DNA from: a virus
Lineage: Duplodnaviria; Heunggongvirae; Uroviricota; Caudoviricetes
Strand: one strand, 5' to 3'
Virus record (IMG/VR): IMGVR_UViG_3300029516_000004
Coordinates: 31,480-95,479 of that record
DNA: 64,000 nt
The notes under the pieces were generated by a model. It had not been told where the DNA came from. It did not search any database and saw only the letters and a program-made list of their open reading frames with translations. Both the position numbers and the translations under genes were made by a program. This document shows positions 51,165-58,685 of this stretch, piece by piece. Numbering within the stretch: position 1 is the first letter of the stretch; each line of letters starts with the position of its first letter.

Positions 51165-51260
51165 CGGCCTCACTAACAGGTTTAACAACCTGCTACCCGC
51201 TGTCAAACAGGTGGCAGGACGTGACAGGGTTGACAGACTGGCGTTAGTGAAACCAGCAGG
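51165..51260 (-). ncRNA. c4: candidate c4 antisense repressor RNA (approximate)
   Basis: About 100-nt structured region (hairpins CCTGC...GCAGG, CTGG...CCAG) between a TTGACC-17-TATAGT promoter (minus strand, around 51404-51432) and icd; position inferred from P1 organisation. Confidence 0.3.
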
Positions 51261-51472
51261 CCGAAGCCTCCCCATCACGCCCCACCATAATTCGGGCGTA
51301 ACGCGGTTTACGGACACAAAAATACCGCAATATCGGAAATCTGCGGTTGTCCGCACTAACATTCAGGCTGTCAAACCTGGTCGCAGAATTTGCTACGACG
51401 GCGGAACTATAAGCCTGAACGATTAAAAGGTCAATATGATGCGAAAAGATAGCATTCGCGACTTAAAAATAC

Positions 51473-51489
51473 AAATTTATTAGAGCATT
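51473..51489. promoter_or_regulatory. C1 operator 17-mer upstream of c4
   Basis: AAATTTATTAGAGCATT (16/17). Confidence 0.6.
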
Positions 51490-51585
51490 ACATGCTTAAT
51501 AAATACACAATTGGATCTAATAACCTCTTTTTTTTAAAGGCGAAAATATGTACCCTAAATGAGTTATAAGGCAGGTGAGGTTATA

Positions 51586-52233
51586 ATGAGAAAACTATTA
51601 CTACCGTTATTATTTATGGCTGGGACTGTTAATGCAGCATCAAGCGTAAAGGAGATTTGTACCGATTATACGAAATACCTTGGGCACGTTTACGGCTTTG
51701 CTGTCAGTCAAGACGAATCCATGCGCAAGAAGTTACTGTCAGATATGAAACGCCTTAAACTTTCTGAAGCGATGGTGCAGCAAGAACTGTATAAAGTCGC
51801 AACCAACGAAAATGCTAAATATCAATATTCTCGCCTGTTAAATCCCGACGCAAACGAGATCAATCGAAGCTCTTTCGATTATATGGTAAAGGCATGCGAA
51901 ACCGCTCCTGATTTTGCTATTCCTAGCTGGGGTGTGCTGGTGGCGAGCAATGCCGTTAATAAAGAAGACGTTGGAAGAAATGGCATTGACTCAATCAGAA
52001 ATGCCCCAGGAATGCGCCATCAAAACGTGCAGGGTACGCTTGAAGAGCGGGCCAGGGGGCCGGGTACAAACTCCCCAATGGGAAACCTCTCACCAGAGGA
52101 ATTGCAAGAGTATAACCAACGGATGGAGCAGTATGAGAAAGCGGCACGCGAACAAATGGAACAACAAAAGAACGGCTCACTTAATACCTTTCAGCAAGGT
52201 TTAAAAGCGCTTAATTTACCCTATGAATGGTAA
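51586..52233 (+). CDS. secreted protein with cleavable signal peptide
   Basis: From Met at 51586: MRKLLLPLLFMAGTVNAASS signal peptide with GGTGAGG RBS; C-terminal PGMR...VQGTLEERARG motif also present in Sit. Confidence 0.55.
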   Translation: MRKLLLPLLFMAGTVNAASSVKEICTDYTKYLGHVYGFAVSQDESMRKKLLSDMKRLKLSEAMVQQELYKVATNENAKYQYSRLLNPDANEINRSSFDYMVKACETAPDFAIPSWGVLVASNAVNKEDVGRNGIDSIRNAPGMRHQNVQGTLEERARGPGTNSPMGNLSPEELQEYNQRMEQYEKAAREQMEQQKNGSLNTFQQGLKALNLPYEW

Positions 52234-52294
52234 ATATATTATGGATAACCAATTAAAATATTGATAATCGTTAATATCCAAAGGAGATAAATTA

Positions 52295-52771
52295 ATGCGC
52301 ATCAAACGATTTTTTCTAATTCTTGCTTTGCTTACTCCATTTTCATCAATGGCAAATGTAAGCAAATGGTCAACCGGCGAGACTCATGGTGTTCGTTCTT
52401 ATGCTGTTTCCAGCAAAGATAATTATACGCTTACATTTGAGTGCGATGTTGGATTTAATAATACGGATCCCAATCAAGTAGGAACACGACTACTCACTCT
52501 CATGAAAACAGAACCTGGCGGTGAGTCATTTGATGCTAAAAAAGAACAAATAACGCTGAAAGTTGGTGATGATGAATATCCTATCAGTTCTATCGGTTCC
52601 TCTGTGGGTGATAGTTACTGGTATGGTTTTTGGTCAGATACCCCTGATATGGAAGTTAAAACATTCGATGCATACGTAGACGGAAAAAAAATAGCAACAT
52701 TTACGCTACGTAAGGCCGCAGAGCTTTTCAACGTGGCACCTGAAGATGGTTGTCTGAAGCGCGCAAAATGA
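52295..52771 (+). CDS. secreted protein with signal peptide (158 aa)
   Basis: MRIKRFFLILALLTPFSSMA signal peptide; strong AAAGGAG RBS. Confidence 0.55.
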   Translation: MRIKRFFLILALLTPFSSMANVSKWSTGETHGVRSYAVSSKDNYTLTFECDVGFNNTDPNQVGTRLLTLMKTEPGGESFDAKKEQITLKVGDDEYPISSIGSSVGDSYWYGFWSDTPDMEVKTFDAYVDGKKIATFTLRKAAELFNVAPEDGCLKRAK

Positions 52772-52779
52772 CCTGTCAC

Positions 52780-52798
52780 AAATGACTACTCGTAGAAT
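52780..52798 (+). promoter_or_regulatory. putative late promoter (TGACTA-N4-TAGAAT)
   Basis: GTCACAAATGACTActcgTAGAAT upstream of the baseplate/sit operon. Confidence 0.45.
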
Positions 52799-52805
52799 CG
52801 GGTAA

Positions 52806-53396
<591 letters not shown>

Positions 53397-54995: not shown

Positions 54996-57900
54996 ATGGA
55001 AAGAAAAAACGCCAATATTGACGATGTTATAAGGACAGTTGAAACCGCCAGCGCGAAAGAGCTGGAAGAGCTTGCAGGTATTCGGGAAGCTGTTGAAGAT
55101 TTGAAAGGGGAACGCGTTGCAACTGTTGACCCAGTATCTCGCAGTGTGTCGGCATTAAATCGCACAATCGAAAATTCACGTCCTGACTTTGTGACCAATG
55201 CGCCATCAGTGGACCCTATTGTTGACGCAATAAAACGGCTTAATTTAGGGGACGTTTCTCGTATACGGGAGGACAAAGTCACTAACCGTGAACAGCAGGC
55301 TGCACCAACAGCGCACAATCCCCCAAATAGACGAAGAGAGGCAATAACAGAGGATGTTAAAGCACAGCGGTTAGAAACGGTCAAACTCGCTCGTGATTTG
55401 AAAGGGGAACGCGTTGCAACGGTTGACCCAGTATCTCGCAGTGTGTCGGCATTAAATCGAACAATCGAAAATTCCCGGCCAGACTTTGTGGCCAATGCGC
55501 CATCAGTAGACCCTATTGTTGACGCAATGAAACGGCTTAATTTAGGGGACGTTTCTCGTATAGTTCAGGAGGGCATTGCTCAACAGGAACAGCAGGTCAA
55601 ATCAACTACACCAAAGGGTAAAAAACGACGCAGGAAGGCTATACCAGAGGATATAAAGGCGCAACGGACCGAAGCAGCCGAACACGCTCGCGAAATGTTC
55701 GATCAAAAAGGCGGTGCGCAAAAAAGCCAAAACCAACGCGATGCGCGTGGTCGTTTTATTGGAAAGTCAGGGAGTAAGGCCGCAGCGGAAGATGCCCGTG
55801 CTGAACGTGCTGAAAGGGCCAGGCGCAAAGAGGATGATGAGCGTCTAAATGCTGAATCAGGTTTATTAAAAAAACTGTCAAAAGTAGCTGAAGGCATAGG
55901 TAACCCTTCAGAGACTCGTGCCGTCGATGCGTTAGGTTATGCCGTTGCTGGTCCATTGTGGGCAGCAGGGAAGGAGCTTGGCGGGATATCAAAAGAAGTT
56001 GGTGGATCGCTTAATGGTGCCAGAAAGTCTATTGCCGATGTGATTCGTGGCAATGACGATAACAGCCGTAGAAAAGGTTTTTTTAGGCGTAAATCGCAAA
56101 ATAGTGCCGATGTCGTTCAGGTTAACACCCAAAAACGGACGGTTCAGGAACTTCAGGAGCAGACCAGCGAAATTAAAGAGGGCAATGACAAGATTCTCAG
56201 CGCCCTTGATCAGATAGCCAAAAACACCGGGAAAAAGAAGGGCGGCTTGCTGTCCAAACTATTTAGCCTGTTAGGGAAGGGGGCCGGTGGCGTCGCGTCG
56301 TTGTTAATGGGGCGTGGCATGCTGAAAAAAGCTGGAGCACTCGCTTTTGGCGCTCTGGGGGCAAAGAAACTTGTAGGAATGCTACGCGGTGGTGGCAAGA
56401 AGACTATCGCCCATGAAGGTGGAGATTTGGCTGCCCGGGCAGCAGGTAAACTTGGATTAAAGGCAGTTGGTAAAGGGGCGTTACGCGCAATTCCCTTAGT
56501 CGGCACAGTGGCTGGAGGTATTTATGATGCGGTAACCGGTTGGAATGATACAGAAGCGCAACGTCGAGCGTTTGGGCTTAAATCAGGACAAGATCCATCA
56601 TTCCAGCAAAAAGCCGCTTATACGTTAGCCAATGTTCTTGATATGGGGGGACTGGTATCTGGTATTAGCAGCGCCATTGGTGAGGTTCTCAAATCACTTG
56701 GATTTGAGGATATCGGCAATATGTTGCAATCATTTTCGACGGAAAGTATTGCCCAGGCCATTGATAGTGGGATTACCAACTTAGAAACATATATTTCTAA
56801 CCTTGGCGACACCATTTCTACCAAGTTCGAAGATTACACAGCAAAGATTGGTGATGCTGTTTCAGCATGGTTTAGCGATACATCTAATAAGCTGCTTGAA
56901 AAGCTGGATGCCATCAAAGACTTCTTTACTGTTGATAACCTGAAACAGGTTTTCAGTGATGCAATTGATAGTGCAATTGATTTCATTAAGAACCCAGGGA
57001 AACACATTAAAGAGGCGGCTGGTAATATTTGGGATGGGGTTAAAAATTTACCTGGTAAAGCATTAGATGCAGCGGTTGATGCCGTTAAAAATACCCCTGC
57101 GGCAATGATTGTATCAAAAATACCCAATCCGATCGGCGAAGCTAATGCGAAAGAAATCACTCCAGAGTTAAAAGCTCCGGTTAATAGCCACCAGGAGACA
57201 TCTGATTCTAAAACTGAATCCGATGCCAAACAGACTAATATTGTTACCCGCGTGATAAATGCGGCACTGGACTCGGCGAAAGATAGCAATAAAACAGTTA
57301 AAGAAACTGCGAATCAGATTATCAATGCAAATGCCGTAGAAACGGGCAATAGCGCGTTGCAGAAAATTGATAAAGCTATTGGTCAAAATAGCTCGTCATC
57401 ATCGTCGCTTAATACCACTGGCACCAGGAATGACATTCAGAAAGCTGCGGATACCTACAACAATGGCCGCTTGGATGTAAAAGTCGGAAGTCTTGGATCT
57501 GAAGGTAAGGCAAATCTCGATAAGTTGGCTCCGTATTTTGCTGAACTAGAGAATAAATATGGTCTTCCAGAAGGCACTCTTTACGCGATTGCTGCAACTG
57601 AATCTGGTGGTAATCCGTATGCAAAATCCCAAACCGGTGCTCTGGGAATGTTTCAGTTCACGGGGATTGCTCGTGAAGAGACTGGCTTAGCTGAAGGTGA
57701 ATCGTTTGATCCTGTGAAATCGGCAGAAGCTGCGGCTCTTCTCATGAGCAAGTATCTGAAGCAAGCCAATGGAGACTTAAACGAGGCCATCACTGCATAT
57801 AACGCTGGGTTTGGCACTATCAATAAGTGGAAAAAAGGCACAGGTGACTTATCGAAAGAAAACCGTGAGTACGCGATCAAGGTCAATACTCATCGTGCTC

Positions 57901-58685
57901 GCTATTTAGGTGGTGAAATCTATACACCTGGAGCAGGAGCACAGGGTGGGGCGCAATATGGAGTGAGGGGACCACTGCCTGATAACGCTGTTATCGATCA
58001 GTCTACTGGCCTGGCGTTTACCCCTGGTGATAGCCCGTTTGAGAAAGGCGGTCTGGTAGACAAAATCGGCAATGCTGTTGGCGTTAACGATCTGGTCAAC
58101 AAATTCATGAATGGCCGGGGTATGCGTCGGGAAGTCGTTCAGGGAACGCTCGAAGAACGTGCACGAGGGAAGGGGACCGCAACAGCAGCTGGCAATGTGT
58201 ATGTTGATACTCCGATGCCAGTTGAAGAGGCGCGTCCGGTGGCCAGCAACTCAAGTTACTTTGACCAACTCGGCGCACAAATGGGGATTGATGGACTATT
58301 CGATAAACTCCGCAACTCGCCGGGGATGCGGAAAAATAATGCGACTGAACCAGCCTCCACGTCCAAGGTGACGACTGCCGCCAACGATTTGCAGCAACCA
58401 ACCGGTCGTATGCAGATAGACGGGCAGGTTATTAGTGACCTTGGCGGTTCCGGTGCCAAGCCGACAATGCAGTTGGCTGATAATACCGTTTCACTTGATG
58501 GTGAAACGAAGCGGCTGTTTGCGCAGATGACCTCATTGCTTGCCAGGATTGAAGAGCACACCAAAGACTCGGCGAAAGGCCAGGGAACTGTCGTAAAGGT
58601 CAGCACGCCTCAGCCGGGCGTTATGCGCACGGTACCACTGTCAATTGATGATCCGTTGATGAATGACTACGCGAGAGTTGATTGA
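54996..58685 (+). CDS. sit: Sit-like injection/tape-measure protein with lytic transglycosylase domain (1229 aa)
   Basis: SLT motifs AIAATESGGNPYAKSQTGALGMFQF; long Gly/Ala-rich and coiled segments; internal in-frame duplication. Confidence 0.85.
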   Translation: MERKNANIDDVIRTVETASAKELEELAGIREAVEDLKGERVATVDPVSRSVSALNRTIENSRPDFVTNAPSVDPIVDAIKRLNLGDVSRIREDKVTNREQQAAPTAHNPPNRRREAITEDVKAQRLETVKLARDLKGERVATVDPVSRSVSALNRTIENSRPDFVANAPSVDPIVDAMKRLNLGDVSRIVQEGIAQQEQQVKSTTPKGKKRRRKAIPEDIKAQRTEAAEHAREMFDQKGGAQKSQNQRDARGRFIGKSGSKAAAEDARAERAERARRKEDDERLNAESGLLKKLSKVAEGIGNPSETRAVDALGYAVAGPLWAAGKELGGISKEVGGSLNGARKSIADVIRGNDDNSRRKGFFRRKSQNSADVVQVNTQKRTVQELQEQTSEIKEGNDKILSALDQIAKNTGKKKGGLLSKLFSLLGKGAGGVASLLMGRGMLKKAGALAFGALGAKKLVGMLRGGGKKTIAHEGGDLAARAAGKLGLKAVGKGALRAIPLVGTVAGGIYDAVTGWNDTEAQRRAFGLKSGQDPSFQQKAAYTLANVLDMGGLVSGISSAIGEVLKSLGFEDIGNMLQSFSTESIAQAIDSGITNLETYISNLGDTISTKFEDYTAKIGDAVSAWFSDTSNKLLEKLDAIKDFFTVDNLKQVFSDAIDSAIDFIKNPGKHIKEAAGNIWDGVKNLPGKALDAAVDAVKNTPAAMIVSKIPNPIGEANAKEITPELKAPVNSHQETSDSKTESDAKQTNIVTRVINAALDSAKDSNKTVKETANQIINANAVETGNSALQKIDKAIGQNSSSSSSLNTTGTRNDIQKAADTYNNGRLDVKVGSLGSEGKANLDKLAPYFAELENKYGLPEGTLYAIAATESGGNPYAKSQTGALGMFQFTGIAREETGLAEGESFDPVKSAEAAALLMSKYLKQANGDLNEAITAYNAGFGTINKWKKGTGDLSKENREYAIKVNTHRARYLGGEIYTPGAGAQGGAQYGVRGPLPDNAVIDQSTGLAFTPGDSPFEKGGLVDKIGNAVGVNDLVNKFMNGRGMRREVVQGTLEERARGKGTATAAGNVYVDTPMPVEEARPVASNSSYFDQLGAQMGIDGLFDKLRNSPGMRKNNATEPASTSKVTTAANDLQQPTGRMQIDGQVISDLGGSGAKPTMQLADNTVSLDGETKRLFAQMTSLLARIEEHTKDSAKGQGTVVKVSTPQPGVMRTVPLSIDDPLMNDYARVD
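55098..55564 (+). repeat. in-frame direct duplication inside sit (about 170 bp repeated at 297-bp spacing)
   Basis: 55098-55267 nearly identical to 55395-55564; both encode GERVATVDPVSRSVSALNRTIENSRPDFV(T/A)NAPSVDPIVDA(I/M)KRLNLGDVSRI. Confidence 0.9.

What the first reader, a model, noticed from the sequence alone, without database searches (positions are those of the whole stretch)
51586..52233. Secreted protein shares a short PGMR...VQGTLEERARG motif with the Sit transglycosylase
The signal-peptide protein encoded divergently from the c4 promoter contains RNAPGMRHQNVQGTLEERARGPGT, closely matching GRGMRREVVQGTLEERARGKGT in Sit (around 58115-58185). Sit has a further SPGMR copy near 58315. 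The DNA has diverged, so this is not a recent duplication. A shared module between a periplasmic protein next to the immunity region and the injected virion protein is what a superinfection-exclusion factor mimicking or blocking the injection machinery might look like.
Basis: partly seen in the sequence, partly recalled or inferred. Interest (0 to 1): 0.4.

Follow-up and report, generated by a model that had tools for sequence, protein, structure and literature searches.

The report
Secreted prophage protein copies tape-measure peptide
A P1-like prophage encodes a secreted protein, sitting where phage P1 keeps its superinfection-exclusion genes, that carries a conserved ~50-residue copy of a peptide from the phage's own injected tape-measure/cell-wall-cutting protein Sit; this makes it a good but untested candidate for a decoy that blocks infection by related phages.

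Summary
The ORF at 51586-52233 (215 aa, Sec signal peptide) shares a module of about 50 aa with Sit (BLASTP E=7e-9; cross-family PHROG hits at 8e-8 and 2e-8). Sit has a weaker second copy.

- **Age of the shared block:** synonymous sites between the two copies are saturated (pS about 0.8), while 13 of 14 core residues are identical. This is an old, selected peptide, not a recent duplication.
- **Distribution:** in 1.84 billion representative proteins, the motif profile finds only Sit-type tape-measure proteins and this ORF family.
- **Genomic setting:** the window is a P1-like phage-plasmid. The ORF lies in the variable slot between the C1 operator Oc4 and the late promoter LPsit, where P1 carries simABC.
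- **Link to P1:** P1 "SimA" (52 aa) is the truncated 5' remnant of this gene. The ORF is unrelated to SimC, the protein annotated as conferring P1 superimmunity.
- **Structure:** AlphaFold2 gives a confident orphan helical domain (residues 19-130). The motif sits in a low-confidence linker, and the tails after it are mosaic across the family.
- **Function:** a periplasmic exclusion or decoy role is plausible, and I favour it at about 0.4. Nothing here tests it. Co-variation with Sit is inconclusive.

This is a new variant of a known kind, of moderate interest.

The parts
51586..52233 (+). Gene for a 215-aa exported protein. It is the full-length form of P1 'SimA' (phrog_3933; 'simA domain protein'). 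It consists of a signal peptide (1-17), a helical domain (19-130), a Sit-like linker motif (122-170) and a C-terminal helix (170-208).
   Evidence: ORF list and sequence. phrog_3933 E=5e-137. Family alignment A1. Identity with P1 SimA over 45 aa counted from ATG 51559. AF2 model.
51949..52095 (+). Sit-like module in the ORF (aa 122-170). The core RNAPGMRHQNVQGTLEERARGPGT lies at 51997-52068.
   Evidence: BLASTP E=7e-9. Alignment A3. HMM 80 bits. pLDDT 45-57, i.e. a predicted flexible linker.
58059..58205 (+). Sit copy 1 of the module (aa 1022-1070). The core GRGMRREVVQGTLEERARGKGT lies at 58110-58175, about 70 residues downstream of the SLT domain.
   Evidence: Conserved in 9 diverse Sit proteins. 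SLT domain at aa 847-956.
58281..58340 (+). Sit copy 2 (partial): MGIDGLFDKLRNSPGMRKNN, aa 1096-1115. It lies inside a ~50-aa insertion specific to P1-type Sit.
   Evidence: BLASTP E=0.011. HMM domain of 16.4 bits. Insertion visible in the Sit alignment.
54996..58685 (+). sit: the tape-measure / structural injection transglycosylase (1229 aa).
   Evidence: Pfam SLT E=1e-26. phrog_2533. Annotated homologues in P1 and P7. Role as tape measure per PMC9024508.
52295..52771 (+). Second gene of the cassette: a 158-aa exported protein (phrog_3429). It is homologous to the YfjT-family (PF27224) neighbours of ORF-family genes in other P1-like elements.
51473..51489 (-). C1 operator Oc4 (AAATTTATTAGAGCATT). 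It forms the left boundary of the variable slot.
   Evidence: Alignment to annotated P1 and P7.
51207..51292 (-). C4 antisense RNA of the immI operon, transcribed divergently from the ORF.
   Evidence: Rfam RF01695, 68.8 bits.
52776..52829 (+). Conserved late-promoter (LPsit) region. Homology with P1 and P7 resumes here, so it forms the right boundary of the slot.
   Evidence: Alignment A7 against annotated P1 and P7.

Best explanation
The ORF is a prophage accessory ('moron') gene. Its product is exported to the periplasm.

The product has three parts: a compact helical domain, a flexible linker, and a variable tail. The linker carries a copy of a peptide that is conserved in the C-terminal part of Sit, downstream of the SLT domain. 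Sit is the tape-measure / lytic-transglycosylase protein that a P1-type virion ejects into the periplasm at infection.

My preferred mechanism is that the protein interferes with the periplasmic stage of infection by P1-like phages. That would give superinfection exclusion, protection from lysis-from-without, or both. It could act in either of two ways:

- by occupying whatever the Sit peptide has to contact, which might be a host envelope component, or Sit's own SLT domain in an autoinhibitory contact;
- by co-assembling with incoming Sit.

Shown here: the signal peptide, the homology and its significance, purifying selection on the peptide in both genes, restriction of the peptide to these two families, occupation of the sim slot, and P1 simA being a truncated relic.

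Inferred, not shown: expression from the repressed prophage, any contact with Sit or its partner, and any exclusion phenotype.
For: - **Homology:** a module of about 50 aa is shared, with BLASTP E=7e-9, reciprocal PHROG profile hits at 8e-8 and 2.2e-8, and alignment A3.
- **Exclusivity:** the motif profile searched against 1.84e9 representative proteins gives 11 hits. All are Sit-like tape measures or members of this family, apart from one low-complexity repeat protein. Within the window only Sit and the ORF score.
- **Selection:** synonymous sites are saturated while the peptide is kept. The family member most Sit-like in protein sequence (P0028, 27/34 aa) shares only 8 of 25 identical codons, so this is not gene conversion.
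- **Conservation within the family:** the motif is the best-conserved block between the window protein and the most distant family members (17/23 in the motif against 42% overall).
- **Conservation within Sit:** the motif is conserved in all Sit proteins examined, including distant P1-like elements that have no such gene next to sit.
- **Context:** the slot between Oc4 and LPsit holds simABC in P1. P1 Sim is reported to stop superinfecting phage DNA from reaching the cytoplasm (PMC8546580 and PMC9177967, both citing Kliem & Dreiseikelmann 1989).
- **Structure:** the motif lies in a low-pLDDT linker between confident helical parts, as expected for a peptide that acts by binding a partner.
- **Precedents:** T4 Spackle is a periplasmic inhibitor of the tail lysozyme (PMC7677548). 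T4 Imm binds the tape measure (bioRxiv 10.64898/2026.03.06.709160). HK97 gp15 is a moron in the tail operon that excludes by acting on the incoming tail (PMC3594210).
Against: - There are no functional data of any kind.
- The protein is unrelated to SimC and to any PADLOC, Pfam or NCBIfam family.
- Roughly half of the family switches to unrelated Cys-pair tails straight after GMR[HQ]Q, so the full VQGTLEERARG block is dispensable for whatever the family does.
- Co-variation with the resident Sit is not demonstrated.
- The only promoter evidence is P1's 'predicted' PsimA, which my scan did not recover. It sits next to the C1 operator, so expression in lysogens is uncertain.
- P1 and P7 do without the gene.
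Confidence: 0.4

Rival explanations
1. The protein is an exported lysogenic-conversion or envelope protein whose role is not phage exclusion. On this reading the shared peptide is a portable periplasmic binding module, for example for peptidoglycan or a host periplasmic protein. Sit and this protein would each use it for their own purposes, such as localisation.
For: The slot holds assorted exported proteins in different P1-like phages: a lipoprotein plus a DUF5384 protein in P7, and YfjT-like partners elsewhere. The conserved part of the family is the orphan helical domain plus only the short N-x-x-GMR-x-Q core. In the distant element L018 the gene is not linked to sit at all.
Against: The motif profile finds the peptide in no protein class other than Sit-type tape measures and this family among 1.84e9 representatives. 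That is not what a general binding module would show. The gene family occurs only in P1-like elements.
Confidence: 0.3
2. The shared segment is an evolutionary leftover. A piece of sit was once recombined into the neighbouring cassette gene and has no present function there.
For: The genes are only 2.8 kb apart. The family is strongly mosaic, with tails swapping exactly at the motif. The motif-bearing part of the gene has a higher G+C content (0.44-0.48) than the rest of the cassette (0.37-0.39), which is closer to sit.
Against: Synonymous saturation combined with 13/14 identical core residues. N139 and R144 are invariant, and G142, M143 and Q146 nearly invariant, across all family members down to 38% identity. 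No DNA-level conversion tracts are seen; the longest exact run is 12 nt.
Confidence: 0.08
3. The protein works for the phage's own lytic cycle rather than against incoming phages. For example, it might modulate Sit-related or host lytic transglycosylase activity in the periplasm around lysis.
For: It lies immediately upstream of the late tail operon (LPsit) and is linked to a muralytic protein through the shared peptide.
Against: It is upstream of the late promoter rather than downstream of it, in a low-G+C accessory slot that P1 and P7 fill with unrelated genes. P1 simA, simB and simC are non-essential in a CRISPRi screen (PMC10695390). Sit is made in the cytoplasm and packaged, so it does not meet a periplasmic protein in the producing cell.
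Confidence: 0.1

Closest known systems
P1 SimA (P1_gp043, 52 aa, 'putative superimmunity accessory function')
   Same: Same locus, same upstream region, and identical first 45 residues counted from ATG 51559.
   Different: P1 SimA stops after 52 aa, where the simB-simC DNA begins. It lacks the helical domain and the Sit-like motif. The window gene is the intact ancestor-like form.
P1 Sim (SimC), the superimmunity / superinfection-exclusion protein
   Same: Same slot between Oc4 and LPsit, an N-terminal signal peptide, and carriage by a P1-type prophage (function per the papers cited).
   Different: There is no sequence similarity to the ORF. SimC has no similarity to Sit either.
T4 Spackle (periplasmic inhibitor of the gp5 tail lysozyme)
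   Same: A small, helical, secreted phage protein that could act on the muralytic tail protein of an incoming myophage. It also protects from lysis-from-without (PMC7677548).
   Different: No sequence or fold match. Spackle is not reported to copy a segment of its target. It is an early lytic gene, not a prophage moron.
Exclusion proteins that act on the tape measure or incoming tail: T4 Imm, HK97 gp15, TP-J34 Ltp
   Same: They block genome entry after adsorption by acting on the tape-measure protein or tail (PMC3594210; PMC3952083). HK97 gp15 is likewise a moron beside the tail genes.
   Different: Those proteins are membrane-embedded or lipid-anchored. This ORF has neither a lipobox nor a transmembrane helix after its signal peptide. 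None of them is described as sharing a homologous peptide with the tape measure.
Sit-family tape-measure / transglycosylase proteins (phrog_2533)
   Same: They share the ~50-aa module K-G-x-[VL]-...-G-...-F-x-N-x-x-G-M-R-x-x-x-V-x-G-[TS]-[LM]-x-x-R-A-x-G-x-G.
   Different: The ORF has no SLT domain, no long helical ruler and no conserved Sit C-terminal plug. Only the module is shared.

Membership tests
SimA / phrog_3933 ('simA domain protein') family | Full-length match to the family profile and to family members from P1-like elements | tested here: met
   phrog_3933 E=5e-137 over 1-215. 28-35 homologue clusters, all on ~90-kb P1-like contigs. 267 P1-like plasmids.
SimA / phrog_3933 ('simA domain protein') family | Orthologous position and shared 5' end with P1 simA | tested here: met
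   DNA is nearly identical (a few mismatches) from the c4 promoter/Oc4 operator region through codon ~45, then diverges.
P1 Sim (SimC) superinfection-exclusion protein | Sequence homology to SimC | tested here: not met
   Best BLASTP E=28.
P1 Sim (SimC) superinfection-exclusion protein | Cleavable signal peptide / periplasmic location | tested here: met
   MRKLLLPLLFMAGTVNA|ASS read from the sequence. Conserved in the family. This is a prediction only.
P1 Sim (SimC) superinfection-exclusion protein | Blocks P1 infection after adsorption | not testable with these tools
   Needs plating and DNA-entry assays.
Sit / tape-measure transglycosylase (phrog_2533, Pfam SLT) | SLT catalytic domain and long helical ruler | tested here: not met
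   The ORF has no SLT hit. It matches only positions 929-972 of the 1130-position phrog_2533 profile.
T4 Spackle-like tail-lysozyme inhibitors | Sequence or fold similarity to Spackle | tested here: not met
T4 Spackle-like tail-lysozyme inhibitors | Binds and inhibits the muralytic domain of the tail protein | not testable with these tools
   The AF2 model of the Sit SLT-to-C-terminus region was low confidence outside the SLT domain (mean pLDDT 45). No complex prediction was available.
Membrane-anchored exclusion proteins that target the tape measure (Imm, gp15, Ltp) | Transmembrane helices or a lipoprotein anchor | tested here: not met
   There is no Cys at the signal cleavage site and no hydrophobic helix after residue 17 (sequence). 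The model is a soluble helical bundle.
PTP-like phytase (PF14566) | Score above the Pfam gathering threshold, and the catalytic C-x5-R loop | tested here: not met
   26.7 bits against a cut-off of 27, over residues 24-109 only. Neither Cys (C25, C104) is followed by R at +6 (sequence).

The most novel reading that the evidence does not exclude
The protein is a superinfection-exclusion factor that works by molecular mimicry. It displays, on a flexible periplasmic linker, the same short peptide that the ejected tape-measure protein Sit uses for an essential and so far unknown periplasmic contact. That contact could be with a host factor or with Sit's own transglycosylase domain. The two copies are kept alike by selection rather than by gene conversion. 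If true, this would be the first exclusion protein known to copy a piece of the injection machinery. It would also point directly to a functional site in the P1 tape measure.
Probability: 0.3. Interest if true: 0.7.

Novelty: new variant of a known kind. Interest (0 to 1): 0.5.

Why it matters
How contractile-tailed phages get their tape measure and DNA across the periplasm is largely unknown for P1, and so is how resident prophages stop them.

A peptide shared only between the injected tape-measure/transglycosylase and a secreted prophage protein marks a specific, mutable site in Sit (N-x-x-G-M-R ... G-T-L-x-x-R-A-x-G). It gives a simple, testable hypothesis for its role.

It also changes the reading of a textbook genome. 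P1 'simA' is not an accessory superimmunity gene but the stump of a larger gene that many P1-like phage-plasmids still carry intact. In the plasmid collection, 84 of 267 matching plasmids cover at least 80% of the gene, and further plasmids carry allelic versions with different tails.

These P1-like plasmids are common carriers of resistance genes in Enterobacteriaceae. Factors that govern which P1-like element can enter a cell that already holds one therefore have practical relevance.

Tried and rejected
1. **Relation to SimC, SimB or P7 Upf50.0.** None found by BLASTP.
2. **Known-family assignment.** Pfam gives only a sub-threshold PTP-like phytase hit, with no catalytic loop. NCBIfam and PADLOC give nothing.
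4. **AF2 model of Sit residues 801-1229, to see whether the motif docks on the SLT domain.** Only the SLT core was modelled with confidence (mean pLDDT 45), so the result is uninformative.
5. **Recent gene conversion between sit and the ORF.** Rejected. The longest exact DNA run is 12 nt, and codon identity at conserved residues is about 25-35%.
6. **Within-genome co-variation of the two motifs.** For the 12-aa core in 9 genomes, permutation p=0.41. For the 34-aa extended block in the 5 genomes that have it, 4 of 120 permutations reach the observed value. This is suggestive at best, and the sample is small and not phylogenetically independent.
7. **Protein search with the Sit C-terminus.** It returned mostly partial Sit fragments and added little.
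8. **Lobocka et al. 2004 (P1 genome paper).** It is not held in the library. Statements about the original sim work therefore rest on the P1 GenBank annotation, on papers that cite it, and on my own recollection.
9. **Solved structure of the motif region.** None exists; only SLT domains match.

Full report
**What the window is.** The region matches P1-like phages (genus Punavirus) at 96-98% identity. The closest is Escherichia phage vB_EcoM-Ro157c2YLVW, where the gene is annotated 'hypothetical protein'.
- The immI elements are in place: C4 antisense RNA at 51207-51292 (-) and its a1b1 targets at 51360-51412 (-), icd/ant further left, and a strong sigma-70-like promoter on the minus strand at 51434-51406.
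- By alignment to the annotated P1 record, the C1 operator Oc4 is at 51473-51489.
- To the right come pmgC, tub, pmgB and sit.

**The observation.** ORF 51586-52233 encodes 215 aa with a classical Sec signal peptide (MRKLLLPLLFMAGTVNA|ASS) and no lipobox. A good Shine-Dalgarno sequence precedes this ATG, and most homologues start here.
- BLASTP against Sit (54996-58685, 1229 aa) aligns ORF 122-168 with Sit 1026-1068: 23/47 identical, E=7e-9.
- It also aligns ORF 129-147 with a second Sit segment at 1096-1115 (E=0.011).
- Profile searches agree. The ORF hits the Sit PHROG at E=8e-8, and the Sit C-terminus hits the ORF's PHROG at 2.2e-8.
- With more family members, the homologous module extends to about 55 columns. 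It includes K-G-K-V-x-K-E-D-x-G-K-S in the ORF family against K-G-G-L-V-D-K-I-G-S-K in Sit.
- A profile of this module scores only these two genes in a six-frame scan of the window.
- At the DNA level the copies are far apart. In the 14-codon core, 13 residues are identical, with pS=0.85 and pN=0.07.

**Where the gene sits, and what P1 simA is.** The interval between Oc4 and the late promoter LPsit is a replaceable slot.
- P1 has simA-simB-simC there.
- P7 has a lipoprotein gene and a DUF5384 gene.
- This window has the 215-aa gene plus a 158-aa gene for another exported protein.
- Homology among the three phages stops at the operator (P7) or inside the first gene (P1), and resumes at about 52776, just before LPsit.
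- P1 SimA (52 aa) equals the first 45 residues of the window ORF read from the upstream ATG at 51559, followed by 7 unrelated residues and a stop where the simB DNA begins. P1 simA is therefore the 5' stump of this gene.
- In the plasmid collection, 267 P1-like plasmids match the protein. 84 match over at least 80% of its length. Others match about 75%, with different tails. Many match only the first 48 codons, which is the P1 arrangement.
- The ORF itself is unrelated to SimC, and SimC has no similarity to Sit.

**The family.** Protein searches find about 35 clusters, all from P1-like ~90-kb contigs of Escherichia, Salmonella, Klebsiella, Cronobacter and metagenomes.
- Residues 19-130 are conserved, including invariant C25 and C104.
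- N139 and R144 are invariant. G142, M143 and Q146 are nearly so.
- Directly after G-M-R-[HQ]-Q the sequences fall into unrelated tail types. One type continues with the Sit-like x-V-[QE]-G-[TS]-[LM]-x-x-R-A-[RY]-G-x-G-T block. The others switch to Cys-pair tails.
- In the most distant clade (38-43% identity overall), the motif block is still 17/23 identical to the window protein, and the protein ends just after it.
- In most elements the gene is paired with a YfjT-family (PF27224) exported protein. The window's 158-aa ORF2 is 53% identical to one of these.

**The motif in Sit.** In nine Sit proteins from diverse P1-like elements, one of the best-conserved stretches outside the SLT core and the extreme C-terminus is:

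S-P-F-x-K-G-G-x-x-D-K-x-G...K-F-[ML]-N-x-x-G-M-R-x-x-x-V-Q-G-T-L-A-[ED]-R-A-Y-G-x-G-T...M-G-N-V

- P1-type Sit (this window, P1, P7) reads L-E-E-R-A-R-G instead. It also has a ~50-aa insertion that carries the partial second copy.
- More distant Sit-like tape measures keep it as well. P0044 has NAPGMRHQVATGSMADRAYG, and P0047 has two copies of AEGMRHQV.
- Those distant elements have no ORF-family gene beside their tail operon. The peptide is therefore probably older in Sit, and the ORF copy derived from it.
- A profile search of 1.84 billion representative proteins returned 11 hits at E<=1e-3: Sit-type proteins, ORF-family proteins, fragments of these, and one low-complexity repeat protein.

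**Selection versus conversion.** The ORF-family member whose motif most resembles Sit (P0028, 27/34 residues against the L007 Sit) shares only 68 of 102 nucleotides and 8 of 25 identical codons at conserved residues. Across all pairs, codon identity at conserved residues is about 25-35%, and the longest exact DNA run is 12 nt. The likeness is therefore maintained at the protein level.
- I looked for co-variation between each element's ORF motif and its own Sit motif. For the 12-residue core in nine genomes there is none (permutation p=0.41).
- For the 34-residue block in the five genomes that carry the extension, own-pair identity (89) exceeds the permutation mean (81.2), and 4 of 120 permutations reach it.
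- That set includes L018/L015, which I treated as one element because the two contigs are 100% identical over a 5.6-kb overlap. In that pair both copies read G-S-M-A-[ED]-R-A. In the window both read G-T-L-E-E-R-A-R-G.
- This is a hint only. The sample is small and not independent.

**Structure.** AlphaFold2 on the 14-sequence alignment gives a confident helical domain (residues 19-130, pLDDT above 90). The segment around the motif has low confidence (blocks 131-170, pLDDT 45-57) and contains two short helices (133-138 and 152-156). A moderately confident C-terminal helix follows (170-208).
- The Sit model shows the same helix-loop-short-helix pattern around its motif. It is low confidence everywhere outside the SLT core, so it says nothing about docking.
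- The helical domain has no detectable structural relative.
- No family library recognises the protein, apart from a sub-threshold PTP-like phytase match that lacks the catalytic C-x5-R.

**Interpretation.** The facts fit a secreted prophage accessory protein that presents a Sit-derived peptide in the periplasm, the compartment into which Sit is ejected.
- The P1 genes in the same slot confer superimmunity / superinfection exclusion. Sim is thought to stop superinfecting DNA from reaching the cytoplasm.
- There are precedents for exclusion proteins that act on the tail lysozyme (T4 Spackle, PMC7677548) or on the tape measure (T4 Imm, bioRxiv 10.64898/2026.03.06.709160; HK97 gp15, PMC3594210).
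- I therefore favour, at about 0.4, an entry-interference role in which the peptide competes for Sit's periplasmic contact or binds Sit's SLT domain.
- The main rival (0.3) is an envelope function unrelated to exclusion, with the peptide serving as a shared binding module.
- A non-functional recombination relic is unlikely given the selection evidence (0.08).
- A role in the phage's own lytic cycle is possible but poorly supported (0.1).
- None of these can be separated without experiments.

**Novelty.** I found no description of the full-length gene, of simA as its remnant, or of the Sit-like peptide. The papers available discuss only simABC as a variable region (PMC9603915) and Sit as the tape measure (PMC9024508). 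The original P1 genome paper could not be consulted. An exclusion protein carrying a homologous piece of the tape measure would be a new variant of a known kind.

Noticed in passing
window 55098-55652 (inside sit): There is a 297-bp tandem duplication (1.9 copies, 83% match) near the 5' end of sit. It makes Sit 1229 aa long, against 1124 aa in a close homologue. If Sit is the tail ruler, this predicts a longer tail, or else a tolerated insertion.
   Followed up: partly
window ~57390-57990 (Sit aa ~800-1000, SLT module): A homologue (P0040) is about 99% identical to the window Sit on both sides of the SLT module but carries a different SLT allele there (G-A-F-Q-I-T type against G-M-F-Q-F-T type). 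Both allele types recur among P1-like Sit proteins, so the muralytic module is exchanged by recombination while the downstream motif stays.
   Followed up: partly
window 52295-52771 (+): The second cassette gene encodes a 158-aa protein with a signal peptide (phrog_3429). It is 53% identical to the PF27224 (YfjT-family) genes that follow ORF-family genes in other P1-like elements, and it is homologous to Cronobacter phage JK004 gene_13. The pair looks like a conserved two-gene exported cassette of unknown function.
   Followed up: partly
L002 (P1) 2060-2218 versus window 51559-51700: P1 simA, annotated 'putative superimmunity accessory function', is a truncated 5' remnant of the window gene. 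Many of the 267 P1-like plasmids that match the protein carry only these first 48 codons.
   Followed up: yes
ORF-family proteins P0009, P0010, P0014, P0023, P0025-27, P0052 (alignments A1/A6): The C-terminal tails switch to unrelated sequences exactly after G-M-R-[HQ]-Q. Several tail types contain a conserved Cys pair. The motif core therefore coincides with a recombination joint between protein modules.
   Followed up: partly
L018 10001-10531, and L015: In a distant P1-like phage-plasmid from a metagenome, the ORF-family gene lies beside the Rep3 replication region rather than next to the sit operon. Its tail operon runs straight from the bplB-like gene into pmgC, with no immI/sim slot.
   Followed up: partly
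window 51700-52300 versus 51300-51700 and 52100-52700: G+C is 0.37-0.39 across most of the cassette but 0.44-0.48 over the motif-bearing part of the ORF, close to sit (about 0.47). This is compatible with the motif segment having come from sit, although amino-acid composition could also explain it.
   Followed up: no
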